From NCBI GenBank assembly GCA_964478715.1, contig CAYZIY010000005.1, forward strand, positions 19,832 to 83,831: a stretch of 64,000 bases of DNA, in the 5' to 3' direction. The notes beneath the pieces were generated by a model. The model was not told the DNA's origin and did not search any database. It was given only the letters and a program-made list of their open reading frames with translations. Both the position numbers and the translations under genes were made by a program. The stretch comes from an uncultured Planctomycetales bacterium. GTDB lineage: Bacteria > Omnitrophota > Gorgyraeia > Zapsychrales > JBDRMG01. The first letter of the stretch is position 1. Every line of letters begins with the position of its first letter. Below are positions 43,999 through 59,781 of this stretch, piece by piece.

Positions 43999-44084
43999 TG
44001 TATCTCACAACAGAGACAAACGCAATTTTTTTCAAAATGATGCTTTTTCTGTTAAAATACTCTACCAATCGAGGGGGTAATGAG

Positions 44085-44783
44085 ATGTTTACCTATTTGC
44101 TTATCAATCTGGCTACCGTGTTCATTCCCTTAGCACTTTCTTTTGAAAGCCGGATTCGGTATTTCAAGAAATGGAAATATGTGGCGGCATCAACAGCCAT
44201 TGTCGGATTTTTCTTTATTGTCTGGGACAGTTTTTTTACCCAATGGGGCGTTTGGGGATTTTCTCCTGCCTATTTGATCGGCATCACTTTTTTCCATCTG
44301 CCTTTAGAAGAGATCCTTTTTTTCTTTTGCGTTCCGTTTTCCTGTATTTTTATCTATGAGCTTGTCTGCCATTTTGATCGCGACGTTATCTTAAAATCTC
44401 TGGCACGTCCGTTAACTATAGGATTGGCAGTCGTTCTATTGATCTTGGGTTTTGTTTTTCTCCATAAAGTTTATACCTCGATCACTTTTCTTTTGCTCGC
44501 TTGGTTGCTTGTCATTCATTTTTTTCTCTTAAAGAAGGAGTATATAGCTCATTTTTATTTAGCCTATGCTATCAGCGTTATTCCTTTTTTACTTGTTAAC
44601 GGAGTTCTCACAAACGGTATAGGTTTTATTAGCAAGAATCCGGTTGTCTGGTATAACAACGCGCAGAATTTGGGACTGCGCTTGATGGGAATTCCTCTCG
44701 AAGATTTTTTCTATTCCTTGCTTCTTCTTTTAAGCAATATTACGATTTACGAATATTTTAAGGGAAGGGAATACAAAGCATGA
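44085..44783 (+). CDS. lycopene cyclase domain protein (two tandem CrtYcd-type domains)
   Basis: MFTYLLINLATVFIPLALSFESR start after the SD GAGGGGG. ~7 TM helices with a PLEE motif. Length fits a fused heterodimeric-type cyclase. The ORF-track start at 43998 is rejected. Confidence 0.6.
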   Translation: MFTYLLINLATVFIPLALSFESRIRYFKKWKYVAASTAIVGFFFIVWDSFFTQWGVWGFSPAYLIGITFFHLPLEEILFFFCVPFSCIFIYELVCHFDRDVILKSLARPLTIGLAVVLLILGFVFLHKVYTSITFLLLAWLLVIHFFLLKKEYIAHFYLAYAISVIPFLLVNGVLTNGIGFISKNPVVWYNNAQNLGLRLMGIPLEDFFYSLLLLLSNITIYEYFKGREYKA

Positions 44784-46809: not shown

Positions 46810-47379
46810 ATGCTTTATTGGTTGGCAAAACTTACTTCTTTTTGTTTTTTTAAGCTATTTTTTAATATTGAGCTAAAAGGGCAAGGAAAAATACCATCCA
46901 AAGGCCCGTTCATTTTAGCGGCCAATCATCTCAGTTATTTTGATCCCCCTCTTGTGGCAACATTTATCAGATGCAGGATATGTTTTCTGGCGAAAGAAGA
47001 ACTTTTTCGCAACTGGATTGGCCGGATATGTTTTTCACAACTCGGAGCGATTCCCTTAAAACGTCAGACGAATGATTTTAGGGCCATGCGTTTGGCTTTG
47101 GCATTATTGAACAAAAAGCCGCTTTTAATCTTTCCCCAGGGAGTGATCAAAGCCGCTTGGGATGATTTTCATGCGGGGGTCGGATTCTTAGCCCGACAAT
47201 CCTCGGTGCCCGTTATGGCGGCCCGCATTTATGGGGCACAACATATTCTTCCCCTTAGAGAGTGTTTCAGGCAAAAAAAGAAGATCAAAATTGTTTTTGA
47301 TTGGGTTGATAATATTCAGCCCGAAGATAACAATCAGATTATAGCCAACAAGGTCATGGAAAAAATCAAAAGCCTTTGA
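46810..47379 (+). CDS. plsC: 1-acyl-sn-glycerol-3-phosphate (lysophospholipid) acyltransferase
   Basis: HX4D motif AANHLSYFDPP and LLIFPQG. Its stop overlaps the start of the downstream megaprotein. Confidence 0.75.
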   Translation: MLYWLAKLTSFCFFKLFFNIELKGQGKIPSKGPFILAANHLSYFDPPLVATFIRCRICFLAKEELFRNWIGRICFSQLGAIPLKRQTNDFRAMRLALALLNKKPLLIFPQGVIKAAWDDFHAGVGFLARQSSVPVMAARIYGAQHILPLRECFRQKKKIKIVFDWVDNIQPEDNNQIIANKVMEKIKSL

Positions 47380-50300
47380 TGAAAATAACATTTGTTTATC
47401 CCCGTTTTGAGAAATTTCTCAGCAATAATCCTGAATTCGACCAGGGTGTGGTCGATTATTTTCTGGGGAATTTTACGACGCCGCCGTCTTTAGGCATTCC
47501 GATTATGGCATCCTGGACCCCGCCTGATATAGAAACCGAATTAGTGGATGACAATAGCGGAGACACCCTTGATTACAGCGCACCAACAGATTTGGTGGCT
47601 ATCAATTGTTTTACGCCTCAAGCCACGCGTGCTCTGGAGATTGCCGATGGCTATCGGGCTCATGGGAAAAAAGTAATTATGGGTGGATTTTTCCCTTCGT
47701 TTATGGTCGACGAATGTTTTCAATATGCGGATGCGGTTTGCGTCGGAGAGGTCGAACCAATTTGGGAATCTGTGATTGAAGATATGCGTTGTGGAGAGCT
47801 GAAGAAGAAATATGTTGGCGGATGCCGTTTCGATCTTTCCAAAATGCGTATCCCTAAGCGCGATATTTTTTATAATAAACATAATTATGACTGGGATGAA
47901 GACCTTGTCCAGATTACGCGCGGCTGTTCGTATAGCTGTGCGATGTGCGCGATCCCTGCTCATATGGGGCCGCGGATTCGCCTGCGTCCCATCGATCATG
48001 TTATCCAAGAGATCAAAACACTGAAATATGACAATGTATATCTGGCCGACGATGTGTTGTTTTTCCCGCAGAGAAGAATATATGATTATGTCACCCAACT
48101 CTTAGAAGCCCTTATCCCTTTAAATAAAAAATATTTTGTCAGCTCGACGATGGCGTTAAGAACTGATCCCAAGTTCCTGGATTTGGTCGCTAAAGCGGGC
48201 GTGCGCAATTTCTACTGCACCATGAACGTTGATCCCGTATCGATTAAGGCTATTCAAGGAGGAAAAAAGGAACAACAGATGCTCTGTGATCTGGTCAAAA
48301 ATATTGAAGAGCGCGGCATTCGTTTTTTTGGGTCTTTTGCGATCGGCCGCGATTGGGATGACACAAGCATTGCTGATCGTATTATTGATTTAAGCAACAA
48401 AGCTAATATCCGCACATCCGAATTCTTTTTGTTTACGCCGTATCCGGGTACCGTTCATTGGGAAAGGCTTGAGCGTCAGGGAAGAATTTTTGATCGCAAT
48501 TGGAGCCACTATAACGGTGCTCATGTAGTGGCCCATCATCCAACGCTTAGCGATGAACAGCTCTATGGTCAATTCGTGAAAATTTGGAAAGAGTTCTTTA
48601 AGAAAAATAAAGATCAGCATGCCGTGCATATGGCTCCCATTGAATATGAGGGAGGCAAAGTTGTCGCCGGTAAGCAGCTTCGAAAAAAGGGCATTAGAGG
48701 CCAAGCGGTGATCACCGGAGTCGGTTTTCTCAGTCCGATTGGCAGTGACAAAGAAACACTTCTGGATTCTTTGAAAAATGGTCGCCACGGCATTGCGCCA
48801 ATAACCAAATTTAACGCATCTCATTTTTCCACTAATCTTGGTGCGGAGATTAAAAATTTTGATCCCCAAGAATATTTGAGTGATTCTGAGCGTCGAGAAT
48901 ACGATGATGCCTATATCCAGTACGGAATTGTCGCTGCCCGTAAAGCCCTTCAGGACGCCGGTTTTCCGTTAGGAGAAGCCCCAAACAATCGCGACACAGC
49001 GATGGTTCTGGGAACTTGCAATGGCGGTCTCTTATCCGGAGAAAAAGAATACAGATGGATCCACGGCCAATCGGATGTTCCCTTTGATGAAAAGATGAAT
49101 TTGCTGGTTAAGTATTACGGATTCGGAAAGGCTATGGCGCATGCCCTAGGTATTGGCGGAGAATTATGGATGGTCACAACGGCGTGTTCTTCGACCACAG
49201 CAGCGATAGGGTTGGCTCACATGCTGATCCGCCGAGGATATTATAAAAAGGTTCTGGTCGGCGGATCGGATAGCTTAAGTTTGGCCAGCATGTCAGGATT
49301 TCATGGCCTGAAAGCACTCTCTTGTGGTCAGACTGCTCCGTTTTCTTTACCGGTTGGTTTAAACATCGGAGAAGCCGCTTGTTTTTGGGTTGTGGAAGAG
49401 ATGGAACATGCTTTGCTGCGGCATGCGCGTTGCTATGCAAAAATTGCCGGCCATGCCACTACCTCTGATGCCTATCATCCAACGGCTCCCGATCCTAGAG
49501 GGGATGGTGTATTTCGTACATTGTCCCGCGCTCTTAATCATGCCGGGATTGACTTAAACCATATCGGCTATATCAATGCGCACGGGACTGGAACGGAAGC
49601 CAATGACAGAGCGGAAAGCAAAGGAATTACTAAGTTTATAAACAATCACTCTATTCCTGCTGTTTCGCTGAAGTCATATTTTGCCCATTGCATGGGGGCA
49701 ACCGGCATTCTGGAGGCGACCTGCAGCCTTCTGGCTATGGAAGAAAACTTCATTCCGCCGACGATTAATTTTACACAAGGACGTCCGGGATGCACGCTTG
49801 ATTATGTTCCAAATAATTTTCGAAACAAAGAACACAAAGCCTTTATATCCGCCAATTATGCCTTTGGGGGTAATAATGCGGCGGCAGTTATAACCCAATG
49901 GAATTTTCCGACACCTCCTGTTACAAACAGCACCCAGCGGGTTGTGATTACCGGTGTGGGGGCCATTTCTTCTCTTGGCACGACCATGGAAGAAAATCTA
50001 ACAGCGTTACGCGAGGGTAAGCGTGGAATTGGCTCTATCAAACGATTGAACCTGAAGAATATGAAGTCCGAACTCGCCGGTTTGGTTCCAGAGTTCAACT
50101 CCCAAGACATCGATCGGCGTCTTGATTTTTCTCATATGAATCCGATCAGCAAATTTGCCACAGCAGCGGCCAAGCGGGCGCTTGATAATTCAGGTATCCG
50201 TGTGAGCAGAAGCAATGCCGATAAAATCGGTATTGCCATGGGCGTTTGCAGTGGGCCTTCAGAAGAGAGTCACATGAATAAACTGTTTACCAGCGGAAAA

Positions 50301-51155
50301 TATGAAGCAGATATCAGCTGTTTTTCTAACATCACGGCTAACTCTACGGCCGGCTGGGTGTCCAATGCTTTGTATTTAAAAGGCGTAAATATTTCTTTGG
50401 CGCCGGGTCATCATGCCGGTCTGCAGGCCTTGGCCTATGCTTTTGATGCGTTGGCAGAAGGTCAGGCCGATCAAATGGTGGTTGGTGCTGCTGAAGAGGT
50501 TTATCCTAATAATTATTGGAAATATGATCTGATCAATTATTTGTATACGGGCGAGCAGGAACATGACTACCGCCTGAGGTTAGACAATGCCAAACAAAAA
50601 GTGATCGGAGAAGGCGCTGGCATGATGGTTATGGAGCCGCTTCATATGGCCCAAAGCCGAGGGGCTCCCATCCTCGGAGAGGTGCTCGGCTATGGAATGT
50701 CTATGGATGGGGGGTCATTTCTTAAACAGAATCTGGATACGCACGGCTTACGCCATGCGTGTGAATTGGCAATACAAAGATCGAATAGTAAAGAGGACGA
50801 TATTGATCTGGTCGTCTGGGCTCCGCAAGGAAACGTTCAGGATAAGAAGGTGATGGATGTTTGCAAAGATATTTTCAAAGAGTGTTATGAACATGTGCCT
50901 TTGGTGACAACCACATTTCATACCGGATATATCGAAAGTGTTTCGATTATCCTTACGCTGGCGTGTGTTCTTTCGGCTATAAAGGAGGATTCTGATCTCT
51001 GGCCGCAAATAACCGGTATTAAGGAGATCGATCAAAAACCATTGAATAAAAAACCTCAGAATATTCTGGTTTTAGGCAGCAGTGATGTAGGATATAACTT
51101 TGCTGTTGTGATTAAACCCGATCCGTTCGATAAACTCCCATCGATTTCTGCATAA
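47376..51155 (+). CDS. tri-domain protein: B12-binding radical SAM domain + beta-ketoacyl synthase (KS) + KS-like chain-length-factor domain
   Basis: By manual count: aa 1-~430 is a B12-binding-like Rossmann region plus a radical SAM core, with C184x3C188x2C191 (GCSYSCAMC at nt 47925-47948). aa ~443-845 (nt ~48702-49910) is a KS with Cys604 (TTACSST), His736 (NAHGTGT) and His771 (FAHCMGATG). aa ~856-1259 (nt ~49941-51152) is a KS-like domain with GVCSGPS but lacking the HGTGT histidine, i.e. CLF-like. Confidence 0.75.
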   Translation: MMKITFVYPRFEKFLSNNPEFDQGVVDYFLGNFTTPPSLGIPIMASWTPPDIETELVDDNSGDTLDYSAPTDLVAINCFTPQATRALEIADGYRAHGKKVIMGGFFPSFMVDECFQYADAVCVGEVEPIWESVIEDMRCGELKKKYVGGCRFDLSKMRIPKRDIFYNKHNYDWDEDLVQITRGCSYSCAMCAIPAHMGPRIRLRPIDHVIQEIKTLKYDNVYLADDVLFFPQRRIYDYVTQLLEALIPLNKKYFVSSTMALRTDPKFLDLVAKAGVRNFYCTMNVDPVSIKAIQGGKKEQQMLCDLVKNIEERGIRFFGSFAIGRDWDDTSIADRIIDLSNKANIRTSEFFLFTPYPGTVHWERLERQGRIFDRNWSHYNGAHVVAHHPTLSDEQLYGQFVKIWKEFFKKNKDQHAVHMAPIEYEGGKVVAGKQLRKKGIRGQAVITGVGFLSPIGSDKETLLDSLKNGRHGIAPITKFNASHFSTNLGAEIKNFDPQEYLSDSERREYDDAYIQYGIVAARKALQDAGFPLGEAPNNRDTAMVLGTCNGGLLSGEKEYRWIHGQSDVPFDEKMNLLVKYYGFGKAMAHALGIGGELWMVTTACSSTTAAIGLAHMLIRRGYYKKVLVGGSDSLSLASMSGFHGLKALSCGQTAPFSLPVGLNIGEAACFWVVEEMEHALLRHARCYAKIAGHATTSDAYHPTAPDPRGDGVFRTLSRALNHAGIDLNHIGYINAHGTGTEANDRAESKGITKFINNHSIPAVSLKSYFAHCMGATGILEATCSLLAMEENFIPPTINFTQGRPGCTLDYVPNNFRNKEHKAFISANYAFGGNNAAAVITQWNFPTPPVTNSTQRVVITGVGAISSLGTTMEENLTALREGKRGIGSIKRLNLKNMKSELAGLVPEFNSQDIDRRLDFSHMNPISKFATAAAKRALDNSGIRVSRSNADKIGIAMGVCSGPSEESHMNKLFTSGKYEADISCFSNITANSTAGWVSNALYLKGVNISLAPGHHAGLQALAYAFDALAEGQADQMVVGAAEEVYPNNYWKYDLINYLYTGEQEHDYRLRLDNAKQKVIGEGAGMMVMEPLHMAQSRGAPILGEVLGYGMSMDGGSFLKQNLDTHGLRHACELAIQRSNSKEDDIDLVVWAPQGNVQDKKVMDVCKDIFKECYEHVPLVTTTFHTGYIESVSIILTLACVLSAIKEDSDLWPQITGIKEIDQKPLNKKPQNILVLGSSDVGYNFAVVIKPDPFDKLPSISA

Positions 51156-51245: not shown

Positions 51246-51569
51246 TTGACGGTTATGGACAGCGCGATGCAAAATGCTATAGAAAAACGGGCCCGCGTGA
51301 TCAATGCGATGAAAGAAGAGCTGATCAAGCGACTCAATTTGCCCTACACTCCAGAAGACATGCACGAAGATATTTCGCTTTTTGGGGCAGGACTTGGCCT
51401 TGATTCGCTGGATGCGCTTGAGGTCGTTTTATGCGTTGAGCATTGTTTTGGTATTAAAATTCCCGACCATAATGTGGCGATTTTACGTTCAATTAATACC
51501 CTGGCCGATTATGTCATAGAACAAAAAGAAAAGACGGAGATAGCCCATGAGAACGCTCCCGCTTCGTGA
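51246..51569 (+). CDS. acyl carrier protein
   Basis: GLGLDSLDALEVVLCVEHCFGIKIPD (phosphopantetheine Ser in DSL). ~80-100 aa. Confidence 0.8.
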   Translation: MTVMDSAMQNAIEKRARVINAMKEELIKRLNLPYTPEDMHEDISLFGAGLGLDSLDALEVVLCVEHCFGIKIPDHNVAILRSINTLADYVIEQKEKTEIAHENAPAS

Positions 51570-52653
51570 TCTTTTGGCCGCTCAAGGGGCCTCTTTTAAA
51601 GAACGTTATGGGATCGAAGTTCCAACTGTCATTAGTGATCCCAAAAAGGAATATCATTTGATCCGCGATACGGTAGGCATTACGGATTTTTCTTTTATGC
51701 AGAAATACCGCATCTCCGGAGATACGGGCGTTGACCTGCTCGATCAATTGTTTGCAGGCAATGTGGCCAAAATCCGTTTTTGTCGAGTTTTACATACATT
51801 TCTTGCAAATAAACAAGGACAGCTAGTTGTTGATGCCTACATCGCCAATAATGATGAAGAGTTTATTGTCTTATGTGAAAGCATTATCGATGATGCCGCT
51901 TGCAAGGATCTTTGCAGGCTTAATGGTGATTCTGGCGGTCTCGAGGATTTAACCGACAGTCACGTAGTTTTCAGCATTGACGGGTATGATGCCTGGAAGG
52001 TTGTCAAAGATCTTTTTGGCGCCGACGTGCTTGGCTTGCCGTATCTTTCCGTAGAAACATACCCATTTGAAGATAGCTCTGTTTTCTTATTTCGCGCCGG
52101 AAAGACTTCTGAATTTGGCTATCTGGCCATGGCCCCCAAAGCAATCGGTCCACAATTAATGAACGCTTTGACTACCGCAGCCAAGCAGCATGGCGGCGGG
52201 CTTTGCGGAAGCAATATCCATCACGACCTACGCCTAGAAGGCCGTTTTTTTAATATTTATGCTGAAGGAAAAAGAGTCAGAGATCCGCTACCCCTTGGCT
52301 TGCAATGGATGATTGATTTTGACAAGGAATCTTTTCTGGGTCATCAAGTGATTCGCGAAAAACGCAAACAAGGTTTGAAGAATAAAATCATCGGTGTAAA
52401 GATCGCCGCTTCCAGCGGGGCTCTTAAGGTCGCAGATCCCGTTTTTGACCAAGAACAACAAGTAGCTTCCGTTGAAGCAGCATGCTTTTCCTATGTCCTT
52501 AATGCCCATGTCGGTTTGGCCTTGTTTCCTTTTTCTATGGCTTATGCCGGTTTAGCATTCCATCTCGGAAAGCCCGGTGGCCCCCGTCTTGATACCATTT
52601 CTATGCCTCCGATTATGCCCAAAAGTTTAAGCGTTAAGCTTGATGAAATGTAA
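51547..52653 (+). CDS. GcvT-family (aminomethyltransferase/YgfZ-like) folate-binding protein
   Basis: The collinear pattern TLPLRDLLAAQGASF...DFSFMQKYRISG...GYLAMAP...GLCGSNIHHDLRLEGRFF...PLPLGLQWMIDFDKESFLGHQVI...KIIGVKI matches the GcvT fold. Overlaps the ACP stop by 23 nt. Confidence 0.6.
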   Translation: MRTLPLRDLLAAQGASFKERYGIEVPTVISDPKKEYHLIRDTVGITDFSFMQKYRISGDTGVDLLDQLFAGNVAKIRFCRVLHTFLANKQGQLVVDAYIANNDEEFIVLCESIIDDAACKDLCRLNGDSGGLEDLTDSHVVFSIDGYDAWKVVKDLFGADVLGLPYLSVETYPFEDSSVFLFRAGKTSEFGYLAMAPKAIGPQLMNALTTAAKQHGGGLCGSNIHHDLRLEGRFFNIYAEGKRVRDPLPLGLQWMIDFDKESFLGHQVIREKRKQGLKNKIIGVKIAASSGALKVADPVFDQEQQVASVEAACFSYVLNAHVGLALFPFSMAYAGLAFHLGKPGGPRLDTISMPPIMPKSLSVKLDEM

Positions 52654-53123
52654 TGAGTGTTCAGGATCTAAACAGTTCAGAAGGCCGATTAATCAAACGC
52701 AAAATGAGAATCACGCCAAAACTGTATGAACTTGATATGCAGGGGGTGGTGTATAATGGTCACTATTTTAAATGGTTTGATCAAGCGCGCTTTGAAATCA
52801 TTTTGGAAATGATCTCTATTGATGAGATTCTTCAAACTGGTCTAACATTTATGATTTCGGAAAATCATTGTGAATATAAAAATTATGTGAGCTACGGTGA
52901 ACCTTTAGTGCTGCATACGTCGCATCGTATTCAGCCTGTGTATCAGGGCCGGTTGACTTTTCAACATTCGATTATGCATGAAAAAAAGAAGACCGAAATT
53001 GCCAGCGGCTATTCCAATCTGATTGTTGTGAATCAGAAAACAAAACAGCTGATTAAGGAAATGCCTGATTTTATCTGGCAAAGATATATCCATCTGCAAT
53101 CCAGCGGTGAACATGTCATTTGA
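52653..53123 (+). CDS. hotdog-fold acyl-CoA/ACP thioesterase (YbgC/4HBT-like)
   Basis: MQGVVYNGHYFKWFDQARFEIILEM matches the 4HBT pattern. ~150 aa. Confidence 0.6.
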   Translation: MSVQDLNSSEGRLIKRKMRITPKLYELDMQGVVYNGHYFKWFDQARFEIILEMISIDEILQTGLTFMISENHCEYKNYVSYGEPLVLHTSHRIQPVYQGRLTFQHSIMHEKKKTEIASGYSNLIVVNQKTKQLIKEMPDFIWQRYIHLQSSGEHVI

Positions 53124-53850
53124 TCATAAAGTTGTTGTTGTAACCGGCGGATCCAGAGGGATCGGTAAGGCTATCGTCGAGGCCTTCTGCGCACATAAGG
53201 CAAAGGTTTATTTCACATATCACAAAGATGAACAAGCGGCACAGGATCTAACAAATTCTTGCAAAGCTGTTGCCATCAAGTGCTCCCAAACGGATCTTGA
53301 GAGCATTGAAAAGACCGTAGAGTCCATCATTAAAGAGAATCAGTCGATCGATATTTTGATTAATAATGCCGGTATTACGTCAGATCAATTTCTGATGATG
53401 ATGACCTTTGATCAATGGGAAAAGGTCATTAATACCAATCTGCACGGGGCTTATCGTTGGGCCAAGATTGTGGGCCGGTCGATGTTGGCTGAGAGAAAAG
53501 GGGTTATGATCAATATCGCCAGTGTAGCCGGTTTGGTAGGCATTGCAGGGCAATCCAATTACGCAGCCAGCAAAGGAGGACTATTGGCCTTTACACGATC
53601 TATGGCTGCTGAGTTTGGACCCAGGGGTATTCGCGTGAATGCCGTTGTTCCCGGTTTTATCGAAACAGATATGACAGCCAAAATGTTCCGTCAGATTAAG
53701 CGACAAAACATCGAGAAAATTCTCCTGAAACGTTTCGGCAAACCCGAAGAAGTGGCCCAGGCGGTTCTGTTCTTATCCTCAGAAGGGGCCTCGTATATCA
53801 TTGGCCAATCTATCATTGTCGACGGTGGATTATCGGCCGTAGCAATCTAA
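53107..53850 (+). CDS. fabG: 3-oxoacyl-[ACP] reductase (SDR)
   Basis: VVVVTGGSRGIGKAI, NNAGIT, and the catalytic YAASKGG. Confidence 0.85.
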   Translation: MNMSFDHKVVVVTGGSRGIGKAIVEAFCAHKAKVYFTYHKDEQAAQDLTNSCKAVAIKCSQTDLESIEKTVESIIKENQSIDILINNAGITSDQFLMMMTFDQWEKVINTNLHGAYRWAKIVGRSMLAERKGVMINIASVAGLVGIAGQSNYAASKGGLLAFTRSMAAEFGPRGIRVNAVVPGFIETDMTAKMFRQIKRQNIEKILLKRFGKPEEVAQAVLFLSSEGASYIIGQSIIVDGGLSAVAI

Positions 53851-53852
53851 TT

Positions 53853-54806
53853 ATGAACAAAATAGTTTTTTTATTTCCCGGACAGGGATCCCAAGAGGTT
53901 GGTATGGGGCGGGATCTGTTTAAACAGGATGATGATTTCCGTGCGCTTATCAATGAAGCCAGCCAGCAAGCCGGGGAAGACCTTGAGCTTATCTGCTTAA
54001 GAGGACCGGCAAAAAAATTAGTGAGGCCGTCTTTGCTCCAGCCTTTACTTGTGGCGGTTAGCCTCGGGTATTTACGTCATGTCATAAGGAAAAATATTAT
54101 TCCTGATTTTGTGCTGGGGCATTCTTTGGGTGAAATCACGGCATTAGTTGCGGCCGGTATCATTGATGACCGCTTGGCTATTTCCATAGCCACCAAACGT
54201 GGCCAGTTGATGGATGAGGCAGCTACCGTCTGTGAAGGCGGCATGATGGCGATATTAGCAGTCGCCCCTGATAAAATTCAAGGCATCATAGATGACCTTG
54301 GTCTTGACAATCAAATAGTGATTGCGAATTATAATACGCTGGATCAGACGGTGCTGAGCGGTAAGCGATCTGCTTTTGATCAGTTGGTTGCGGAAATTCA
54401 TAAAGCCGGAGGAAAATGTAAGAAACTCAATGTCGCCGGGCCATGGCACAGCCCCTACATGCAAAACGCGTACGAACAGTTTCGCATATGGGTTGAGCCT
54501 TTGACATTCCAGTCACCCCAAATGCCCGTTATTCTTGATGGCACAGGCCAAGCAGAATCAGACCCCATTGTTATCAAACAGGCCATCACATCGAGCCTTA
54601 TTAATCCTGTTCAGTTTAGAAAATGCATGGAATATTGTCATGCGCAGTCCGTTAAGACCTTCCTTGAGATTGGACCGGGGCGGGTTTTGTCCGGACTGGT
54701 ACGCGCCAATGGATTTGAGGACACAACCCGCATCTACAAGGTCAATAATTACCGCGGTGTAGAATTGGTGGCCTCTGAATTATCTTCACAACCGCAATCC
54801 GCTTAG
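53853..54806 (+). CDS. fabD: malonyl-CoA:ACP transacylase
   Basis: FLFPGQGSQEVGMG and GHSLGEITALVAAG (active-site Ser). Confidence 0.85.
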   Translation: MNKIVFLFPGQGSQEVGMGRDLFKQDDDFRALINEASQQAGEDLELICLRGPAKKLVRPSLLQPLLVAVSLGYLRHVIRKNIIPDFVLGHSLGEITALVAAGIIDDRLAISIATKRGQLMDEAATVCEGGMMAILAVAPDKIQGIIDDLGLDNQIVIANYNTLDQTVLSGKRSAFDQLVAEIHKAGGKCKKLNVAGPWHSPYMQNAYEQFRIWVEPLTFQSPQMPVILDGTGQAESDPIVIKQAITSSLINPVQFRKCMEYCHAQSVKTFLEIGPGRVLSGLVRANGFEDTTRIYKVNNYRGVELVASELSSQPQSA

Positions 54807-54808: not shown

Positions 54809-55894
54809 TTAATCACAAGGTAGAGGGAAGTATTTATCGAGTCGGGAGAAAAGCATTTTGTCTCCTTGAATAACGAGCTTCTGATCCTTAAGCGCATTGC
54901 GCGCGTCGAGCTCTCGTAGGAAAATCTGTGACCACACATCACTCGTGGTGGTTATGCGCAGATGATAATCCTCCGATAGGCATTCTTTGACCGTACATTT
55001 TCCTTTATTGATTGTAATCGTAAAATGGATATTTCTATCAGTAAAATCAAATTGAACAGATGCTTTGATACGGGCTGTGGCTTGGGAATCAATGTGCCGG
55101 ACCATTTCGCTGATCAGAATGTAAGGATTTTTAAGAACATGGTTGTTGACGGAATTTGGATCCATAGCCTGCTTGCCTAGCGCTTGTGCTTCCTGCCAAT
55201 AAATGTTGGAATCCTCTAGAAAATGGGAAACATTTTCAGAAAGAGGCACACTGACATTGTTTATTATTGATTGTGAGATCTTACCCTGTGTCGCAAGCTC
55301 GGTGCCCGCGGTTCTAAAAGAAGACATTACAGTTCGAATCGTCTTGGGCTTTAAATAGGTAAATGGCAGCAGATAGGATTCACCGCGGATCAAGCCGCCA
55401 GCTAAAGGTAGGTTTAATCCTTCGGAAAAGAGTTCAAGCGTTTTACGGGCTCCTTCAAACGTATCTAAACCACGGAATGCCCCCACCAGGATATAGGCCA
55501 TTTTTTGTGGCCATTTTTTAGGATTGCGGATGGCGTTACGAATCTTATCTTGACCAGCGGGCAGATGCACATTTTTCATATAGGGCAATAAACGATCAAA
55601 GAATACTTTCAATGTGCCGCTGATACTGTAGATATATAAGGGTGTGGAGAAAACAACAATGTCGGCTTGTGTGAATGTTCCCATAGCAGAGGTCATATCA
55701 TCCTTATAAACGCATTGCCCGGGAGTTATCAGCCAACAATGATAACAACCCTTACAGGGATTGATTCTTTTGGTCGTTAAATCAATCTCTTGAACGTTGG
55801 CATTGCCTTGTTTCAGGCCTTCGATAAACAGATCGGTTAGCTGTTGGGTGTGGCCGTTTTTTCTGGGATTAGCGCGGATGATCAGGGCGTTCAT
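54809..55894 (-). CDS. flavodoxin-like NAD(P)H-dependent FMN reductase fused to SCP2-like lipid-binding domain
   Basis: N-terminal MNALIIRANPRKNGHTQQLTD...CKGCYHCW...VVFSTPLYIYSISGTLKVFFDR (iron-sulfur flavoprotein-like). C-terminal ~100 aa with SCP2-like NALKDQKLVIQGDKMLF. Confidence 0.55.
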   Translation of the reverse strand: MNALIIRANPRKNGHTQQLTDLFIEGLKQGNANVQEIDLTTKRINPCKGCYHCWLITPGQCVYKDDMTSAMGTFTQADIVVFSTPLYIYSISGTLKVFFDRLLPYMKNVHLPAGQDKIRNAIRNPKKWPQKMAYILVGAFRGLDTFEGARKTLELFSEGLNLPLAGGLIRGESYLLPFTYLKPKTIRTVMSSFRTAGTELATQGKISQSIINNVSVPLSENVSHFLEDSNIYWQEAQALGKQAMDPNSVNNHVLKNPYILISEMVRHIDSQATARIKASVQFDFTDRNIHFTITINKGKCTVKECLSEDYHLRITTTSDVWSQIFLRELDARNALKDQKLVIQGDKMLFSRLDKYFPLPCD

Positions 55895-56361
55895 AGCGTT
55901 CCTTCTACAGCTGCAAGAGTCAGGATACCTTTAGCAACGATTTTACGGCCAACGGTGGCTTCAACAGTGTAACTATAAAGCTGTTCAAATTGTTCACGAG
56001 TTTCCGAAATCAATTCAAGTGTTTCTCCCGGAAAAGCAGGGGAGGTGAATTTGACATTAGATGAGGCCAAGTAGAATATCTTGGGGGGTTCTTGCTGATT
56101 GCTGGGGATGGCTTTTTTACTGAAGCCTAAGAGCAACCCACTTGTTTGGGCTAAGGCATCCAGCACTAAGGCTCCGGGCATAATCGCTTTTTGCGGAAAA
56201 TGACCCTTAAACCATGGCTCATCTTCACGGATGAATCTTTCAGCAATGATAAGGTGATCCGGTTTGAATTTAATGACTCGATCAACAAAAAGAAAAGGAG
56301 GGCGATGGGGGATAATATCGAGGATCTCTTCTAATCTGAATAATGTATTTTTTTTCATCAT
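55891..56361 (-). CDS. fabZ: 3-hydroxyacyl-[ACP] dehydratase
   Basis: IIPHRPPFLFVDRVIKFKP...EPWFKGHFPQKAIMPGALVLDALAQ (catalytic His/Glu context). Confidence 0.85.
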   Translation of the reverse strand: MMKKNTLFRLEEILDIIPHRPPFLFVDRVIKFKPDHLIIAERFIREDEPWFKGHFPQKAIMPGALVLDALAQTSGLLLGFSKKAIPSNQQEPPKIFYLASSNVKFTSPAFPGETLELISETREQFEQLYSYTVEATVGRKIVAKGILTLAAVEGTL

Positions 56362-56415: not shown

Positions 56416-57243
56416 TTAATGGGAGCCAGCAGCATTCTTAACTGGATCAGAAGAAAAGGATGAAGTAAAATTCTCGACGGTAGTCAAGATATGGGCTGAT
56501 CCCCGACCAGACTCCAGTCCTTCATATTTCAACCAGACACGAGGCTTATCTTTACTATACCACAACAAAGTCGGCGGCACAAATTGGTCAACAATGGCAT
56601 TGAGAAAACCCATATCGGTATTTATTTTGATTTGCACAGTTTCTATTTTTTGTGATTCAACCATGATAGAGTCTTCTTTAAGTAATTCGGCTTTTAACTT
56701 ATAGAGACCTGGTTCGCTGCTGACAAAATGAAAACGTATCGTTTCTCCAGCTATCAAATCATCAAGAAAAGGTTTTAAAAAATAAATAAGGGTGGCATAA
56801 TCTGTTGTGCGCTCCTTTAGAGGCAAAGATTGTTGTTCGATTATGTTCATATTCTCGTCCAAGCGTCTGATATGGATAATCTTATCTTGATAATCGTAAT
56901 CATTTTTAAGAGTGGAGATAATCCGATTTTCTCTATTTCTAATTGTAAAGAGAGTATAAAGTGGACAAAGAAGATCTTCTCTGCTTTCTGTTTGGGATTC
57001 AAGCTTCCAGCTTATATCGTTGAATGATCCGTAATTTCCCAGACCAGCTTCCTTAAGGACAAAGCGATCATTACTTAGATGCTTAAAATTTCCATCAAGG
57101 CGAGAGCGCATGACCTTGGTCTTTTTGTCGATTGATATTTGTTGATACGTTTCGACTTCAGGCCAAAGGAATTGGCCTAAGCATGGGCTGCAGCAGGAAA
57201 GGATTCCTAAGACAATGGCTGATTGGCGAATAAGCCTTTTCAT
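56416..57243 (-). CDS. secreted hypothetical protein (paralog A of 62274-63107)
   Basis: Signal peptide. Shares the blocks YDYQDKII and L/IDDVLDQFVKPT..WY..........WLKYEG with the paralog. Confidence 0.5.
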   Translation of the reverse strand: MKRLIRQSAIVLGILSCCSPCLGQFLWPEVETYQQISIDKKTKVMRSRLDGNFKHLSNDRFVLKEAGLGNYGSFNDISWKLESQTESREDLLCPLYTLFTIRNRENRIISTLKNDYDYQDKIIHIRRLDENMNIIEQQSLPLKERTTDYATLIYFLKPFLDDLIAGETIRFHFVSSEPGLYKLKAELLKEDSIMVESQKIETVQIKINTDMGFLNAIVDQFVPPTLLWYSKDKPRVWLKYEGLESGRGSAHILTTVENFTSSFSSDPVKNAAGSH

Positions 57244-57818
57244 TAACGGTTTTCAGAAGAAAGAAATTGTTGATAAAAATCGTCAATTTTTCCTGGCAAT
57301 ACGTCGTCTTTTAAATCACTGTGATAAAGGCCAAGAGTCGGGATATCTTCACGTGGTTTCTGAAAAATAAGCTCGACTGTTTGAGCGATAGCGTTTTCGA
57401 TTCCGGTTAAATGCGCGGTGCCAAAGACGCCAACGTGCTTGTCAGAGATATCATTGGCATCGATATAAGTGCGCACCGCCGGAGTGACATTGCTCCACCA
57501 GCCGGGGGTGCCGATAAGAATAATATCATAATCCTGCGGATCGCATTGAAGCGATTTCAGTTCAGTTAAGTTACCGGCCACTGCATCTTTACCGGCCCGC
57601 ATAAAGGCGATCGGGCCGGTTCTCTTTGTTTGATCAATCAATTCTTCTAAATCTGCATTAAACTTTTCGGATAAACGTTGGGCCACTTTCTTCGTGTGTC
57701 CGTCACGGGAATAAAAAACAACCAACGTTTTGGATATTTCCTGTGCCGGGCATGTTATTGGGAGATTCATTAAAAATGCAGCCACAATGAAAAGAGTAAT
57801 TACGAGTCTTTTAAACAT
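57243..57818 (-). CDS. flavodoxin-family protein with N-terminal signal peptide/anchor
   Basis: MFKRLVITLFIVAAFLMNLPITCPAQE, then TLVVFYSRDGHTKKVAQRL...DIILIGTPGWW. Paralogous to the protein at 40328-40819. Confidence 0.6.
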   Translation of the reverse strand: MFKRLVITLFIVAAFLMNLPITCPAQEISKTLVVFYSRDGHTKKVAQRLSEKFNADLEELIDQTKRTGPIAFMRAGKDAVAGNLTELKSLQCDPQDYDIILIGTPGWWSNVTPAVRTYIDANDISDKHVGVFGTAHLTGIENAIAQTVELIFQKPREDIPTLGLYHSDLKDDVLPGKIDDFYQQFLSSENR

Positions 57819-57835: not shown

Positions 57836-58570
57836 TTATGCCAATTGACCTTGATAAAGAGTGGCAATGCCACCTGTTAAAGATTGTGCCCGAATATTTG
57901 TAAGTCCATAGTGATCCATGATCGCTAAAATCCTTTTTGGCGGCGGAAATTCACAAATGGTTCTGGCTAGATAATCAAAGGCCCTGCGGTCTTTCAAGAA
58001 GAGACGGCTAACCGCAGGCATAATCTTTATCAGATAGAACAAATAGATCTTTTTAAGAATTTTATTGTTTGGAAGAGAAAATTCAAGGATTTTCATTTGC
58101 CCGCCTCTTTTCAAAACACGAACCATTTCACAAACAGCTTTCTCAATGGAGTGTTCATTCCTTAAACCGAAGGTATTAACTACCACATCGAATGATTGAT
58201 CTTGAAACGGCATCGAGAGTCCGTTGGCCCGAAATATCTTAATTCGATCAGAGAGACCATGAGATTTAATCCGGCGATAAGATTTTTGAAGCATACCATC
58301 AGAGATATCCACGGCGACCAGTCGGCTTTGCGGATGCTCTTTAGCAAAGGCGATGGTGGTTTCGGATGTGCCCGCGCAAACGTCACAAACCAGGGGAGCG
58401 TTTGGCATAGTATAAGATTGAACCAGAAATCTGATCCAGTTCCGATGAATGGAGGCTGAAAAAAGTGAGTTTAAAAAATCATAACGAAAGGCAATCGAAT
58501 CAAAAAGTTTTTCCGTTTTATTGTGATTCACTGTCATTGTATTATCTTTTGTATTTCTTAAGATGGACAT
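57836..58570 (-). CDS. class I SAM-dependent methyltransferase (UbiE/MenG family)
   Basis: FDSIAFRYDFLNSLFSASIHRNWI (UbiE N-terminal motif) and the SAM-binding VCDVCAGTSETT. Confidence 0.7.
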   Translation of the reverse strand: MSILRNTKDNTMTVNHNKTEKLFDSIAFRYDFLNSLFSASIHRNWIRFLVQSYTMPNAPLVCDVCAGTSETTIAFAKEHPQSRLVAVDISDGMLQKSYRRIKSHGLSDRIKIFRANGLSMPFQDQSFDVVVNTFGLRNEHSIEKAVCEMVRVLKRGGQMKILEFSLPNNKILKKIYLFYLIKIMPAVSRLFLKDRRAFDYLARTICEFPPPKRILAIMDHYGLTNIRAQSLTGGIATLYQGQLA

Positions 58571-58578: not shown

Positions 58579-59781
58579 TTATCCATGAACTTGCTTGTAT
58601 TTTGAGACGGATGACAAAGTATCCATCCGGTGAAATTTATCGATGATTTTTTTACGCACTTTTTGATGCCACCCAAAAGGCAAGCGAATAGAAAATATTC
58701 TAATACACACCCTTAAAAGAAACTTGCAAATAGGGCCCGGATGAAAGCCTCTGATGAGAGTAATTTGTTTGAGAATGGGCTTTAAAGATCGACGATATCT
58801 TTCTGCCAAATTGGGAGCATCTTCAAGCAGACATTGAGCGGCTATTTGACCTGTTTTCATGGCATAATAAATCCCTTCACCGGTTAGCTGCCTGACCGCC
58901 CCGAGGGCGTCTCCACATAAAAGAATATCCTCATGGCCAAACTGTCTAGCAACAGCCACCGGACAGCAGGCTCCGCTCAATCTCTTTTTCTCAAATTCAG
59001 CAGGGATTAGATTTTGAGTGAGGGCATATTGAAGAAACTCATCCAGCATTTGATGAAGAGGTTGGCGTGTTTCTCCGATCAAGCCCATTCCCAGGGCATA
59101 GCCATCAGGATTGGGGAAAATCCAGCTGAAACCAAGTTCGTTTTGCCAATTTAAGAAAACAGAGGTTGAGCCCTGTCCCACATGAGCACATTTCAGATCA
59201 TATTGGATACAGCGGCCGTAATCAGTGCGGCGAGCAGGTCGGTTCCCCAAAAAGCGGCTCACGACACTCCCAAAACCGTCGGCTCCGATGATCTTGCGCG
59301 CATAATAGGTTTTTTCTCTGCCTCTTAGGCGGTAGATGCTTTCTTTGTCTTTGATAAGTCTATCAATTTCTCTGATCCGACATGTCTCAAAGCGAACTTG
59401 AGGAGACTGTAATGCAATTTTGACAAGCGCATGATCGAAATCGAAGCGGTCAACGACATCAAAAATATGGATATCGGGCGTATGATAAAAATAGGCTTCA
59501 TTGCAATAAAAATGAAAGTCATAACAGGAAAAAGCCGGCAGTTCATTTTGAATGAGGCGGAAATTTTCAAATTCAAGCGGCCAATCCTCGACGAAAAATA
59601 ATCCGCCGGCACAACATTTTTGACGCGGAAAATCATGGGCATCAACAATAAGGATATTTTTGCGGGGGTCTTTACCTAAATAATACGCGGCTATAGATCC
59701 TCCTGGACCTGCGCCGACAATCATCACATCGTAGATTTGAGAATCGGTAATCCGCGGATCCAAGAAGTTTTTAGTGTCCAT
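58579..59781 (-). CDS. geranylgeranyl reductase-family FAD-dependent oxidoreductase
   Basis: YDVMIVGAGPGGSIAAYYLGKD and FPRQKCCAGGL (GGR RxKxCGGG-type motif). Confidence 0.65.
   Translation of the reverse strand: MDTKNFLDPRITDSQIYDVMIVGAGPGGSIAAYYLGKDPRKNILIVDAHDFPRQKCCAGGLFFVEDWPLEFENFRLIQNELPAFSCYDFHFYCNEAYFYHTPDIHIFDVVDRFDFDHALVKIALQSPQVRFETCRIREIDRLIKDKESIYRLRGREKTYYARKIIGADGFGSVVSRFLGNRPARRTDYGRCIQYDLKCAHVGQGSTSVFLNWQNELGFSWIFPNPDGYALGMGLIGETRQPLHQMLDEFLQYALTQNLIPAEFEKKRLSGACCPVAVARQFGHEDILLCGDALGAVRQLTGEGIYYAMKTGQIAAQCLLEDAPNLAERYRRSLKPILKQITLIRGFHPGPICKFLLRVCIRIFSIRLPFGWHQKVRKKIIDKFHRMDTLSSVSKYKQVHG

What the first reader, a model, noticed from the sequence alone, without database searches (positions are those of the whole stretch)
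51547..52653. GcvT-family folate-binding protein translationally coupled to the cluster ACP
The ORF overlaps the ACP stop codon by 23 nt and aligns by eye along its whole length with aminomethyltransferase/YgfZ-fold proteins (tetrahydrofolate binders). A one-carbon folate protein inside a fatty-acyl cluster is odd. The neighbouring B12-rSAM domain adds to this. Together they suggest methyl-group supply, for example THF-dependent reloading of a corrinoid, or formyl/methylene chemistry on the acyl chain.
Basis: partly seen in the sequence, partly recalled or inferred. Interest (0 to 1): 0.6.

Follow-up and report, generated by a model that had tools for sequence, protein, structure and literature searches.

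The report
T-protein-like partner of a dedicated ACP
The gene is real and has the fold of the glycine-cleavage T-protein, but it belongs to a large uncharacterised branch that has lost the usual folate-binding residues and is always paired with (sometimes fused to) an acyl carrier protein in ketosynthase lipid/polyketide clusters, so it looks like an unrecognised subunit of these synthases, not a one-carbon supplier for the neighbouring B12 radical-SAM domain.

Summary
ORF 51547-52653 (368 aa) is a full-length T-protein-fold protein (Pfam GCV_T 6.7e-32; AF2 model TM 0.83 to T. maritima T-protein). Its ATG overlaps the ACP stop by 23 nt.

- It is not a canonical GcvT. NCBIfam scores lie far below cut-off.
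- Of the canonical THF ligands, Asp96 is kept and invariant and Met51 is kept but variable. Tyr is replaced by invariant Lys186, the pterin-anchoring Glu by Leu193, and Arg by His225.
- It is not YgfZ-like: the signature Cys is absent.

Its constant partner is the ACP, not the rSAM.
- 76/76 related loci have the ACP motif directly upstream, mostly with overlapping stop/start.
- Natural ACP-GcvT-like fusion proteins exist.
- 8/8 distant non-canonical relatives sit beside KS-CLF fusion genes without any rSAM.
- Only 36/51 close homologues adjoin an rSAM-KS-CLF.

Best reading: a carrier-protein/T-protein pair rewired from H-protein to ACP, acting on the phosphopantetheine-bound chain in an aryl-polyene-like type II synthase, probably without folate. 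The exact chemistry is unresolved. I found no literature on it.

The parts
51547..52653 (+). GcvT-like (T-protein-fold) protein, 368 aa. Non-canonical 'K-type': motif FRAGKTSEFGYL. Asp96, Lys186, Glu189, His225 and Ser360 are conserved. It has a conserved C-terminal extension TISMPPIMPKSLSVKLDEM.
51255..51569 (+). Dedicated acyl carrier protein (104 aa, Ser in GLGLDSLDA). Its stop overlaps the GcvT-like start by 23 nt. It belongs to the same specialised ACP family that is fused to GcvT-like domains in other organisms.
51536..51569 (+). Coupling junction: GGAG ribosome-binding site (51536-51539), GcvT-like ATG (51547) and ACP stop TGA (51567-51569).
   Evidence: The junction is conserved as an overlap in 51 of 58 related loci.
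47376..51155 (+). Tri-domain megaprotein: B12-binding/radical SAM (about aa 1-430), active ketosynthase (about 443-843) and inactive chain-length-factor-like domain (about 851-1259). The likely start is ATG 47379.
   Evidence: An adjacent homologue is present in 36/51 loci.
52653..53123 (+). 4HBT-fold (YbgC/FadM-like) thioesterase. Its ATG overlaps the GcvT-like stop by 1 nt.
   Evidence: Found in 49/82 loci, and it is the only other cluster gene kept in the Myxococcota loci.
53107..53850 (+). FabG-like ketoreductase (an alternative start at 53113 was used by an independent gene call).
   Evidence: Found in 68/82 loci.
53853..54806 (+). FabD-like malonyl-CoA:ACP transacylase.
   Evidence: Found in 57/82 loci.
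54809..55894 (-). FMN-reductase/flavodoxin-like domain fused to an SCP2 lipid-binding domain. Conserved convergent neighbour.
   Evidence: Found in 31 loci, and also next to the distant relative P0123.
55891..56361 (-). FabZ/FabA-like (weakly ApeI-like) 3-hydroxyacyl-ACP dehydratase.
   Evidence: Found in 33 loci.
56416..57243 (-). 275-aa protein with no family hit and a signal/lipoprotein-like N-terminus (LGILSCCSPCLG). Possible lipid export or carrier component. A 276-aa ORF family sits at the same relative position in 31 loci, but the window protein was not clustered with it, so homology is untested.
57243..57818 (-). Flavodoxin, a plausible reductant for the radical-SAM domain (inference).
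46810..47379 (+). PlsC-type acyltransferase directly upstream of the megaprotein. It probably attaches the product to a lipid (inference).
   Evidence: Also present in Ca. Aceula locus L006.

Best explanation
The ORF encodes a T-protein-fold enzyme whose carrier-protein partner is the cluster's dedicated ACP instead of the lipoyl H-protein.

Shown:
- The ACP and the GcvT-like gene form an invariant, translationally coupled (in some lineages fused) two-gene module.
- The module is embedded in KS-CLF type II synthase clusters related to aryl-polyene/FAS-like lipid clusters, across many phyla.
- The canonical pterin site is rebuilt: Tyr to Lys186, Glu to Leu193, Arg to His225. The central Asp96 is kept.

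Inferred:
- The ACP docks on the protein as H-protein docks on T-protein.
- The ACP inserts its phosphopantetheine-tethered acyl intermediate through the former lipoyl-arm tunnel into the remodelled cleft.
- There a folate-independent acid/base step (Asp96, Lys186, Glu111/Glu189, His225) generates or edits the starter or intermediate that the KS-CLF elongates and that the adjacent 4HBT thioesterase or acyltransferases then release.
- Candidate chemistries are decarboxylative priming (the CLF lacks the priming Gln), isomerisation/cyclisation, or chain sequestration.

The B12-rSAM domain is an add-on of one subfamily of these clusters, not the reason the GcvT-like protein is there.

My probabilities: ACP-partnered subunit of the KS-CLF pathway about 0.85; folate-independent about 0.65; any single named chemistry 0.2 or less.
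For: Fold and family:
- Pfam GCV_T 6.7e-32.
- AF2 model pLDDT 86.8. Foldseek TM 0.82-0.84 to T-proteins, against 0.61 for YgfZ and 0.53 for Iba57.

ACP pairing:
- 76/76 related loci with upstream sequence have the ACP Ser motif within 450 nt upstream on the same strand.
- The stop/start overlap is 4 nt in 40/58 loci and 20-32 nt in 9/58.
- The pair persists in Myxococcota loci where the KS, KR and MAT genes are absent.

Fusion evidence:
- P0194, P0223, P0245 and P0264 are single proteins with PP-binding + GCV_T + GCV_T_C.
- The N-terminal ACP parts of these four and of P0224 belong to the same family as the window ACP.

Broader clade:
- Of 132 full-length top sequences (130 library representatives plus two solved T-proteins added as references), 118 are non-canonical.
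- All 8 sampled contexts (L086-L093) contain KS-CLF fusions. Seven of the 8 have the ACP directly upstream. None has an rSAM.
- A canonical control sits next to GCV_H.

Remodelled folate site:
- The alignment in the R-x-G-x-T-G-E-x-G-[YF]-x motif has no gaps. It shows Tyr to Lys186 (invariant), Glu to Leu193, and Arg to His225.
- PMC9551070 reports that Met56, Asp101, Tyr197 and Glu204 are invariant in THF-using members, and that charge-swapping replacements of this kind accompany loss of folate use in Iba57.

Other:
- The CLF has His, not Gln, at the active-site position.
- No KSIII or AMP-ligase was found among the annotated flanking genes at about 40-59 kb.
Against: - No biochemical data exist, and model coordinates could not be inspected, so the docking geometry and pocket shape are inferred by homology only.
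- Asp96, the residue essential for folate-dependent catalysis in GcvT, is invariant in the close family. It is D/E in most K-type relatives. Most of the hairpin that forms the pterin pocket is also kept. A non-canonical folate site therefore cannot be excluded.
- Active-site-equivalent residues differ between sub-clades. In the 'other' class, position 96 is often hydrophobic (Leu/Ile) and position 186 is variable. This could mean diversified chemistry or a non-catalytic role.
- The Myxococcota ACP-GcvT-like-thioesterase triplets in housekeeping contexts do not fit a simple 'primer for KS-CLF' role, unless the synthase is encoded elsewhere.
Confidence: 0.6

Rival explanations
1. Folate-dependent C1 transferase acting on the ACP-bound chain. 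The protein binds 5,10-methylene-, 5-methyl- or formyl-THF in a modified pocket. It adds or removes a one-carbon unit on the phosphopantetheine-tethered intermediate, for example alpha-hydroxymethyl/methyl branching or a C1 starter.
For: - Full T-protein architecture.
- Asp96 is invariant, and much of the RxGxTGExG[YF] hairpin is retained.
- T-proteins naturally act on a group carried by a swinging arm of a carrier protein, and the ACP pairing or fusion mirrors this.
Against: - The pterin-anchoring Glu and the stacking Tyr, reported invariant in GcvT, DMGO and TrmE (PMC9551070), are replaced by Leu and Lys. Arg233 is replaced by His.
- Scores against all NCBIfam folate-enzyme models are far below cut-off.
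- No folate-related genes or THF riboswitch lie in the window.
Confidence: 0.2
2. Non-catalytic ACP-binding subunit. Like the CLF relative to the KS, it would be a degenerate enzyme fold used as a scaffold or chaperone. It would shield a reactive ACP-bound intermediate or present the ACP to the KS-CLF.
For: - Across the wider clade the active-site-equivalent positions are not universally conserved: residue 96 is D/E or hydrophobic (Leu/Ile and others), and residue 186 is K/L/Y/F/R.
- The GcvT-fold relative Iba57 works without folate chemistry in a protein complex.
- The conserved C-terminal extension could be a docking helix.
Against: Within the close family many polar cavity-equivalent residues are invariant at 45-74% identity across phyla (Asp96, Lys186, Glu189, His225, Arg229, Glu231, Arg233, Asn236, Gln253, Asp257, Lys260). 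Ser360 is 100% conserved in the K class. This is more typical of catalysis or very specific ligand binding.
Confidence: 0.12
3. Methyl supply for the B12 radical-SAM domain. The protein would transfer a methyl group from methyl-THF to the corrinoid of the neighbouring rSAM domain.
For: It lies in the same operon as a B12-binding/rSAM domain in the window and in 36/51 close loci. GcvT-fold enzymes (DmdA, LigM) can handle methyl-THF (established knowledge).
Against: - The ACP/GcvT-like pair occurs without an adjacent rSAM in 15/51 close loci. These include KS-CLF versions lacking the rSAM domain (L053, L072, L076). All 8 distant relatives also lack it.
- The pairing or fusion is with the ACP, not with the rSAM.
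- The canonical folate ligands are lost.
- Class B rSAM methylases normally reload cobalamin from SAM (established knowledge).
Confidence: 0.03
4. YgfZ/Iba57-like Fe-S cluster maintenance factor serving the radical-SAM domain.
For: YgfZ affects the rSAM enzyme MiaB in E. coli (discussed in PMC9551070). Like Iba57, this protein keeps the Asp but loses other THF ligands.
Against: - The YgfZ/Iba57 signature Cys (KGC[YF]xGQE) is absent. The equivalent position is a variable Ser262.
- Structural similarity to YgfZ/Iba57 is much lower than to T-proteins: TM 0.61/0.53 against 0.83.
- The family occurs in clusters without rSAM.
Confidence: 0.03
5. Ordinary glycine-cleavage T-protein that happens to lie next to a lipid cluster.
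For: The best sequence and fold matches are GcvT proteins.
Against: - NCBIfam GcvT models score 119 against a cut-off of 300, and 105 against 235.85.
- No gcvH or gcvP is nearby, whereas a canonical control has GCV_H adjacent.
- Synteny with the ACP is conserved across at least seven phylum-level groups.
- THF and H-protein contact residues are not conserved.
Confidence: 0.01

Closest known systems
Glycine cleavage system T-protein (GcvT/AMT, EC 2.1.2.10) with its lipoyl H-protein
   Same: Same three-domain fold over the whole length (TM 0.82-0.84). The central Asp is conserved. The gene sits next to the gene of a small carrier protein that bears a thiol-ended swinging arm, so the logic of a carrier-protein/T-protein pair is the same.
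   Different: - The carrier is a phosphopantetheinyl ACP, not a lipoyl H-protein.
- The pterin-binding Tyr and Glu and the GcvT-specific Arg are replaced (Lys186, Leu193, His225).
- Scores are far below the equivalog cut-offs.
- It has a conserved extra C-terminal segment with an invariant Ser360.
- The genomic context is KS-CLF/KR/DH/MAT, not gcvH/gcvP.
Iba57 / YgfZ (COG0354) GcvT-fold proteins
   Same: Precedent for a T-protein fold that keeps the Asp but has lost the canonical THF ligands through swaps between charged and hydrophobic residues, and that works in a protein complex without folate chemistry (PMC9551070).
   Different: It lacks their essential surface Cys motif and is structurally much closer to true T-proteins. 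Its partner is an ACP in a synthase cluster, not Fe-S assembly proteins.
DmdA, LigM, and the DMGO/DMGDH/TMAO-demethylase THF domains
   Same: They are GcvT-fold homologues recruited to reactions other than glycine cleavage. They are detectable sequence and fold relatives.
   Different: DMGO keeps the canonical pterin ligands, and DmdA relatives are reported with a conserved folate-binding Glu and Tyr (PMC7487153). That the others also use folate is established knowledge. None is paired with a carrier protein. NCBIfam DmdA scores 54.5 against a cut-off of 410.
Aryl-polyene (APE) type II synthase clusters (ApeO/ApeC KS-CLF, ApeE/F ACPs, ApeI/P dehydratases, ApeK 4HBT thioesterase, LolA/MMPL export, acyltransferases)
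   Same: Same kinds of components around the gene: KS-CLF, small ACP (weak PRK09184 hit), KR, FabA/ApeI-like DH, 4HBT thioesterase, and lipid acyltransferase. Relatives also have MMPL, LolA, Lip_A_acyltrans and GT2.
   Different: Classical APE clusters, as I recall them, have no GcvT-like gene and no rSAM, and they use an AMP-ligase-loaded aromatic starter (from memory). Here KS and CLF are fused, and one subfamily carries an N-terminal B12-rSAM domain.
Anammox 'ladderane' Cluster I (amxACP, amxFabZ, FabF2/FabFmut heterodimer, radical SAM enzymes)
   Same: Both combine a KS/CLF-like pair, a dedicated ACP, a dehydratase and radical-SAM enzymes in a lipid cluster of uncultivated or fastidious anaerobes (bioRxiv 10.64898/2026.05.19.726425).
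   Different: That preprint's description of Cluster I names no GcvT-like protein. The rSAM here scores only 41 bits on TIGR04072, against a cut-off of 360, and it is fused to the KS.

Membership tests
Glycine cleavage T-protein (GcvT, equivalog) | GCV_T + GCV_T_C three-domain fold | tested here: met
   Pfam GCV_T 6.7e-32, GCV_T_C 0.0041. Foldseek TM 0.82-0.84 over the full length to 1wos/1woo.
Glycine cleavage T-protein (GcvT, equivalog) | Score above the curated NCBIfam cut-offs | tested here: not met
   NF001567 scores 118.9 against 300. TIGR00528 scores 105 against 235.85. NF010093 scores 84 against 459.
Glycine cleavage T-protein (GcvT, equivalog) | Canonical THF ligands Met56, Asp101, Tyr197, Glu204 (+Arg233), human numbering | tested here: not met
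   Met51 is variable and Asp96 is invariant. Tyr is replaced by Lys186, Glu by Leu193 and Arg by His225. The ligand definition comes from PMC9551070.
Glycine cleavage T-protein (GcvT, equivalog) | Genomic association with gcvH/gcvP | tested here: not met
   No GCS genes were found among the annotated ORFs at about 29.6-63.8 kb of the window; 1-29.6 kb was not annotated. An ACP lies upstream in 76/76 loci. The canonical control P0210 has GCV_H adjacent.
Glycine cleavage T-protein (GcvT, equivalog) | Aminomethyl transfer from H-protein to THF (activity) | not testable with these tools
   Needs an enzyme assay.
YgfZ / Iba57 (COG0354) | Invariant Cys in the KGC[YF]xGQE motif | tested here: not met
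   The equivalent segment is K260-E-S-F-L-G265, with a variable residue at the Cys position. The motif position follows PMC9551070.
YgfZ / Iba57 (COG0354) | Closest structural neighbours are YgfZ/Iba57 | tested here: not met
   TM 0.61 (1vly/1nrk) and 0.53-0.56 (Iba57), against 0.82-0.84 for T-proteins.
DmdA / LigM THF-dependent demethylases | Family-level sequence score or closest fold match | tested here: not met
   NF009133 DmdA scores 54.5 against 410. DmdA gives TM 0.78 and LigM 0.66, both below the T-proteins.
Non-canonical ACP-associated GcvT-like clade (undescribed; defined here) | Motif R-x-G-K-T-[GS]-E-[FY]-G-Y-x without the pterin Glu, plus a C-terminal extension ...S-x-P-x(4-5)-S-[LMF] | tested here: met
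   Window sequence: FRAGKTSEFGYL and TISMPPIMPKSLSV. The motif is shared by 54 K-type representatives.
Non-canonical ACP-associated GcvT-like clade (undescribed; defined here) | Specialised ACP gene directly upstream (or fused) and KS-CLF genes in the neighbourhood | tested here: met
   In the window the ACP is at 51255-51569 and the KS-CLF at 47376-51155. The ACP motif is upstream in 76/76 loci. Fusion proteins exist. All 8 distant contexts show the same neighbourhood.
Accessory of class B (B12) radical-SAM methylases | Consistent co-occurrence with the rSAM domain or gene | tested here: not met
   36/51 close loci have an adjacent rSAM-KS-CLF. Three have KS-CLF without rSAM, and 11 have neither within 10 kb. 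None of the 8 distant relatives has one.
Aryl-polyene-like type II synthase cluster (context, not the protein itself) | KS-CLF pair, ACP, KR, FabA/ApeI-like DH, 4HBT thioesterase, lipid acyltransferase/export genes | tested here: met
   The window has all of these except MMPL/LolA. Relatives L004 and L086 add MMPL, Lip_A_acyltrans, LolA and GT2. The product chemistry was not tested.

The most novel reading that the evidence does not exclude
T-protein-fold proteins with a rebuilt cofactor pocket would be an unrecognised, widespread core subunit of a class of fused KS-CLF synthases. This would be an H-protein/T-protein-style carrier-enzyme pair rewired to the phosphopantetheine arm of a dedicated ACP. 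It would catalyse a new reaction on ACP-bound chains. That reaction would be either folate-independent (starter generation, cyclisation or isomerisation) or a new folate-dependent C-C bond formation. In the rSAM-bearing subfamily (Omnitrophota, Fibrobacterota, Verrucomicrobiota and others, all uncultivated), the module would help make a novel membrane lipid.
Probability: 0.35. Interest if true: 0.8.

Novelty: new variant of a known kind. Interest (0 to 1): 0.62.

Why it matters
- It would add a new protein family to the known parts of type II polyketide/fatty-acid-like synthases.
- It would be a second clear case, after Iba57/YgfZ, of the folate-dependent T-protein fold being repurposed. Here the fold keeps the 'carrier protein with swinging arm' logic but swaps lipoyl-H-protein for ACP.
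- The family is large: at least about 118 clusters at 50% identity among the top hits alone.
- It spans Omnitrophota, Fibrobacterota, Verrucomicrobiota, Lentisphaerota, Kiritimatiellia, Myxococcota and Gammaproteobacteria, and MAGs labelled Saccharibacteria, Rokubacteria and others. No paper in the searched library mentions it.
- One cultured carrier (Bermanella marisrubri) makes it experimentally tractable.
- For annotation, such genes should not be called 'glycine cleavage system T protein', and they should not be counted as one-carbon metabolism in metabolic reconstructions of these MAGs.

Tried and rejected
1. Literature searches found nothing. I combined GcvT, aminomethyltransferase or 'glycine cleavage T' with radical SAM, ketosynthase, chain length factor, aryl polyene, type II polyketide and ACP. 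The one apparent hit (PMC3908369) only lists unrelated aminomethyltransferase ORFs on a sponge fosmid.
2. A THF or cobalamin riboswitch as support for the folate/B12 idea: none found, only a tRNA.
3. Corrinoid-reloading and YgfZ-type Fe-S repair roles were rejected on co-occurrence and motif grounds (see rivals).
4. Inspecting the predicted pocket directly was not possible, because the tools return no coordinates. Residue-level conclusions rest on gap-free motif alignment to solved T-proteins.
5. My greedy ORF calling in high-GC loci produced many antisense shadow ORFs (clusters 6, 7, 9 and others). I ignored these. ACP adjacency was re-tested with a motif scan.
6. Myxococcota contexts (L081, L084) gave only housekeeping neighbours, so they did not clarify the function.
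7. I could not obtain a residue-level DmdA alignment. I rely on PMC9551070, and on the statement in PMC7487153 that a folate-binding Glu/Tyr is conserved in DmdA relatives.
8. No phylogenetic tree was built. Clade statements rest on the score gradient and shared motifs.
Full report
**1. Observation**

The ORF at 51547-52653 (+) exists and encodes 368 aa. Its ATG (51547-51549) lies inside the upstream ACP gene, whose TGA is at 51567-51569, so the overlap is 23 nt. A GGAG sits 7 nt upstream of the ATG. All homologues start MR(x)(S/L)PL, and an independent gene call on identical metagenomic contigs uses the same start. The same call places the ACP start at ATG 51255 (104 aa).

Tight spacing continues downstream:
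- The GcvT-like stop overlaps the thioesterase ATG by 1 nt (TAATG).
- The thioesterase overlaps the ketoreductase.
- The ketoreductase is followed by the malonyl transacylase after a 2-nt gap.

**2. What the protein is**

- Pfam GCV_T matches over the full model (6.7e-32), and GCV_T_C matches weakly.
- Sequence search against solved structures finds T-proteins first (1yx2 3e-23, 1woo 3e-17), then DMGDH and DmdA. A family profile raises these to 1e-38 and 2e-35.
- An AlphaFold model built on 33 homologues has pLDDT 86.8 and pTM 0.86.
- Foldseek aligns the model over about 365 columns to T. maritima T-protein with TM 0.82-0.84. LigM (0.66), YgfZ (0.61) and Iba57 (0.53) are clearly more distant.

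So it has the complete three-domain T-protein architecture. It is not, however, a GcvT equivalog. All NCBIfam GcvT, DmdA, TMAO-demethylase and SoxA models score far below their cut-offs, for example 119 against 300.

**3. The folate site**

PMC9551070 lists Met56, Asp101, Tyr197 and Glu204 of human GcvT as the canonical THF ligands. It reports them as invariant in GcvT, DMGO and TrmE. Arg233 is specific to GcvT proteins. The Glu makes the double hydrogen bond to the pterin, and the Asp acts on N10.

The segment that carries Tyr and Glu aligns without gaps, because it is anchored on both sides. Canonical R-T-G-Y-T-G-E-D-G-[FY]-E aligns with F-R-A-G-K-T-S-E-F-G-Y-L.

| Canonical ligand (human) | In this family | Conservation |
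|---|---|---|
| Met56 | Met51 | variable |
| Asp101 | Asp96 | invariant |
| Tyr197 | Lys186 | invariant |
| Glu204 | Leu193 | variable, hydrophobic |
| Arg233 | His225 | invariant |

. The same paper describes swaps between charged and hydrophobic residues of this kind, with the Asp retained, for the folate-independent Iba57.

The YgfZ/Iba57 signature Cys is absent. I therefore regard canonical folate binding as not supported. A non-canonical mode is not excluded.

**4. Who has it and what lies next to it**

Close homologues (45-74% identity) occur in MAGs of Omnitrophota, Fibrobacterota (Chitinivibrionales, Fibrobacter), Verrucomicrobiota, Kiritimatiellia, Lentisphaerae, Rokubacteria and Myxococcota. 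No cultured genome is among them. The window itself is closest to Ca. Aceula meridiana (70%).

In 82 loci the conserved neighbours are:
- the ACP, in 73 loci by clustering;
- the KR, in 68;
- the MAT, in 57;
- the KS-CLF proteins, in 52;
- the 4HBT thioesterase, in 49.

A convergent set is also conserved: an FMN-reductase-SCP2 fusion and a FabZ-like dehydratase. A 276-aa ORF family occupies the position of the window's 275-aa putative lipoprotein, but the window protein was not clustered with it.

A motif scan shows the ACP Ser motif within 450 nt upstream on the same strand in 76 of 76 loci with enough upstream sequence. The stop/start junction overlaps by 4 nt in 40 of 58 loci and by 20-32 nt in 9.

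The rSAM-KS-CLF megaprotein is adjacent in only 36 of 51 loci with at least 6.5 kb of upstream sequence:
- three loci (L053, L072, L076) have a KS-CLF without the rSAM domain;
- one (L043) has the gene split into two ORFs although rSAM-like sequence is present;
- eleven have neither a megaprotein nor an adjacent co-oriented KS-CLF.

In Myxococcota only ACP, the GcvT-like gene and the thioesterase remain, among housekeeping genes.

**5. The wider clade**

A profile search of 1.84 billion representatives gives 8,407 hits, with a smooth score gradient from this family down to canonical GcvT. I aligned 132 full-length sequences: 130 top representatives plus two solved T-proteins as references. Their motif classes are:
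- 54 share the Lys-type motif (R-G-K-T-G-E-[FY]-G-Y-x);
- 64 have other non-canonical variants;
- 14 are canonical (Y...E...R), including the two PDB references.

The non-canonical proteins share a C-terminal extension (T-[VI]-S-x-P-[FP]-x3-x-S-L). Its Ser, Ser360 here, is 100% conserved in the Lys class.

I sampled eight distant non-canonical members. They include one from the cultured Bermanella marisrubri and one from a MAG labelled Saccharibacteria.
- All eight lie beside about 800-aa KS-CLF fusion genes.
- Seven have an ACP gene directly upstream.
- None has a radical-SAM gene in the stretch retrieved.
- Accompanying genes are KR, FabA/ApeI-like DH, MAT, PPTase, and in one case LolA, MMPL, Lip_A_acyltrans and GT2, that is, an aryl-polyene-like cluster.

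A canonical control is followed by the H-protein gene.

Five representatives begin with the same specialised ACP sequence as the window ACP. For four of them (P0194, P0223, P0245, P0264), Pfam confirms PP-binding + GCV_T + GCV_T_C in a single protein. The fifth (P0224) was not scanned.

**6. Interpretation**

The constant functional partner is the ACP, and the constant pathway context is a KS-CLF synthase. The rSAM is neither. The simplest model is that the T-protein/H-protein relationship has been transferred to an ACP: the ACP docks, and its phosphopantetheine-tethered intermediate enters the central cleft. There the pterin pocket has been rebuilt (Lys186, Leu193, His225, Cys110/Glu111) around the retained Asp96.

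What happens there is inferred, not shown. The CLF domain has His, not Gln, at the active-site position. No KSIII or AMP-ligase was found among the annotated flanking genes. Starter generation, for example malonyl-ACP decarboxylation, is therefore one candidate. Isomerisation or cyclisation, or protective sequestration of the chain, are others. The adjacent 4HBT thioesterase, or the PlsC-type, LpxL-type or FeeM-aminotransferase enzymes present in different lineages, would then release the product or transfer it to a lipid. The putative lipoprotein, MMPL and LolA genes suggest export to the envelope.

A folate-dependent C1 transfer through a non-canonical site remains a real rival (about 0.2). 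Corrinoid reloading, YgfZ-like Fe-S repair and genuine glycine cleavage are each unlikely (0.03 or less).

**7. Novelty**

Seven full-text searches found no paper that connects aminomethyltransferase or GcvT-like proteins with type II PKS, APE, KS-CLF or ACP systems. The library is incomplete, so this is absence of evidence. The sources annotate these proteins only as 'aminomethyltransferase', 'glycine cleavage T ... domain-containing' or 'hypothetical'.

I classify it as a new variant of a known kind: the T-protein fold with a new partner, a rebuilt pocket and a new pathway. It deserves experimental follow-up.

Noticed in passing
window 47376-51155 (+): A single 1259-aa protein fuses a B12-binding/radical-SAM domain to an active KS and an inactive CLF (His at the Cys position). 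The same architecture recurs in Fibrobacterota, Verrucomicrobiota, Lentisphaerae and Rokubacteria. There it is often followed by a second 770-aa KS-CLF, which the window and other Omnitrophota lack.
   Followed up: partly
P0194, P0223, P0224, P0245, P0264 (representative library): Natural single-chain ACP-GcvT-like fusion proteins (434-474 aa). Their ACP part is homologous to the window ACP. Pfam confirmed the domain set for four of them; P0224 was not scanned.
   Followed up: yes
window 54809-55894 (-) and L086 9111-10133: An FMN-reductase/flavodoxin-like domain fused to an SCP2 lipid-binding domain is a conserved convergent neighbour (31 loci). It also accompanies a distant GcvT-like relative. 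Its role is unknown (enoyl reduction? cobalamin or flavin reduction?).
   Followed up: no
window 56416-57243 (-): A 275-aa protein with no Pfam or NCBIfam hit and a lipoprotein-like signal peptide. A 276-aa ORF family sits at the same relative position in 31 related loci, but the window protein did not cluster with it, so homology is untested.
   Followed up: no
L004 13446-15266 and 13 other loci: A fusion of about 600 aa, combining a FeeM-like N-acyl amino acid synthase with a class I/II aminotransferase (alpha-oxoamine-synthase-like), follows the MAT gene in Verrucomicrobiota-type clusters. This suggests an aminolipid or sphingoid-like end product there. It is absent from the window.
   Followed up: partly
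window 40816-44783: An isoprenoid/carotenoid gene set lies immediately upstream of the cluster: amine-oxidase/phytoene-desaturase-like (40816-42303), IspH/LytB (42278-43117, -), squalene/phytoene synthase (43114-43998, -) and a lycopene-cyclase-domain protein (43998-44783). Further on are a geranylgeranyl-reductase-like gene (58579-59781, -) and a UbiE-type methyltransferase (57836-58570, -).
   Followed up: no
L077-L084 (Myxococcota/Deltaproteobacteria MAGs): Only the ACP, the GcvT-like gene and the 4HBT thioesterase are kept, in housekeeping surroundings (citrate synthase, isocitrate dehydrogenase, MnmA). No synthase gene lies within 10 kb.
   Followed up: partly
P0217 (685 aa, representative library): A high-scoring GCV_T/GCV_T_C protein (312 and 88 bits on the Pfam models) fused to an N-terminal lysyl-phosphatidylglycerol-synthase transmembrane domain. 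This is another unexpected link between lipids and a GcvT domain. Its motif class was not checked.
   Followed up: no
window 60919-62277 (+), 63127-63798 (+), 35235-37123 (+): A class 2 photolyase, a TIGR04283-type ('arsenosugar biosynthesis') glycosyltransferase, and a Y-family polymerase followed by an SRAP peptidase. All are ordinary, and they are unrelated to the finding.
   Followed up: no
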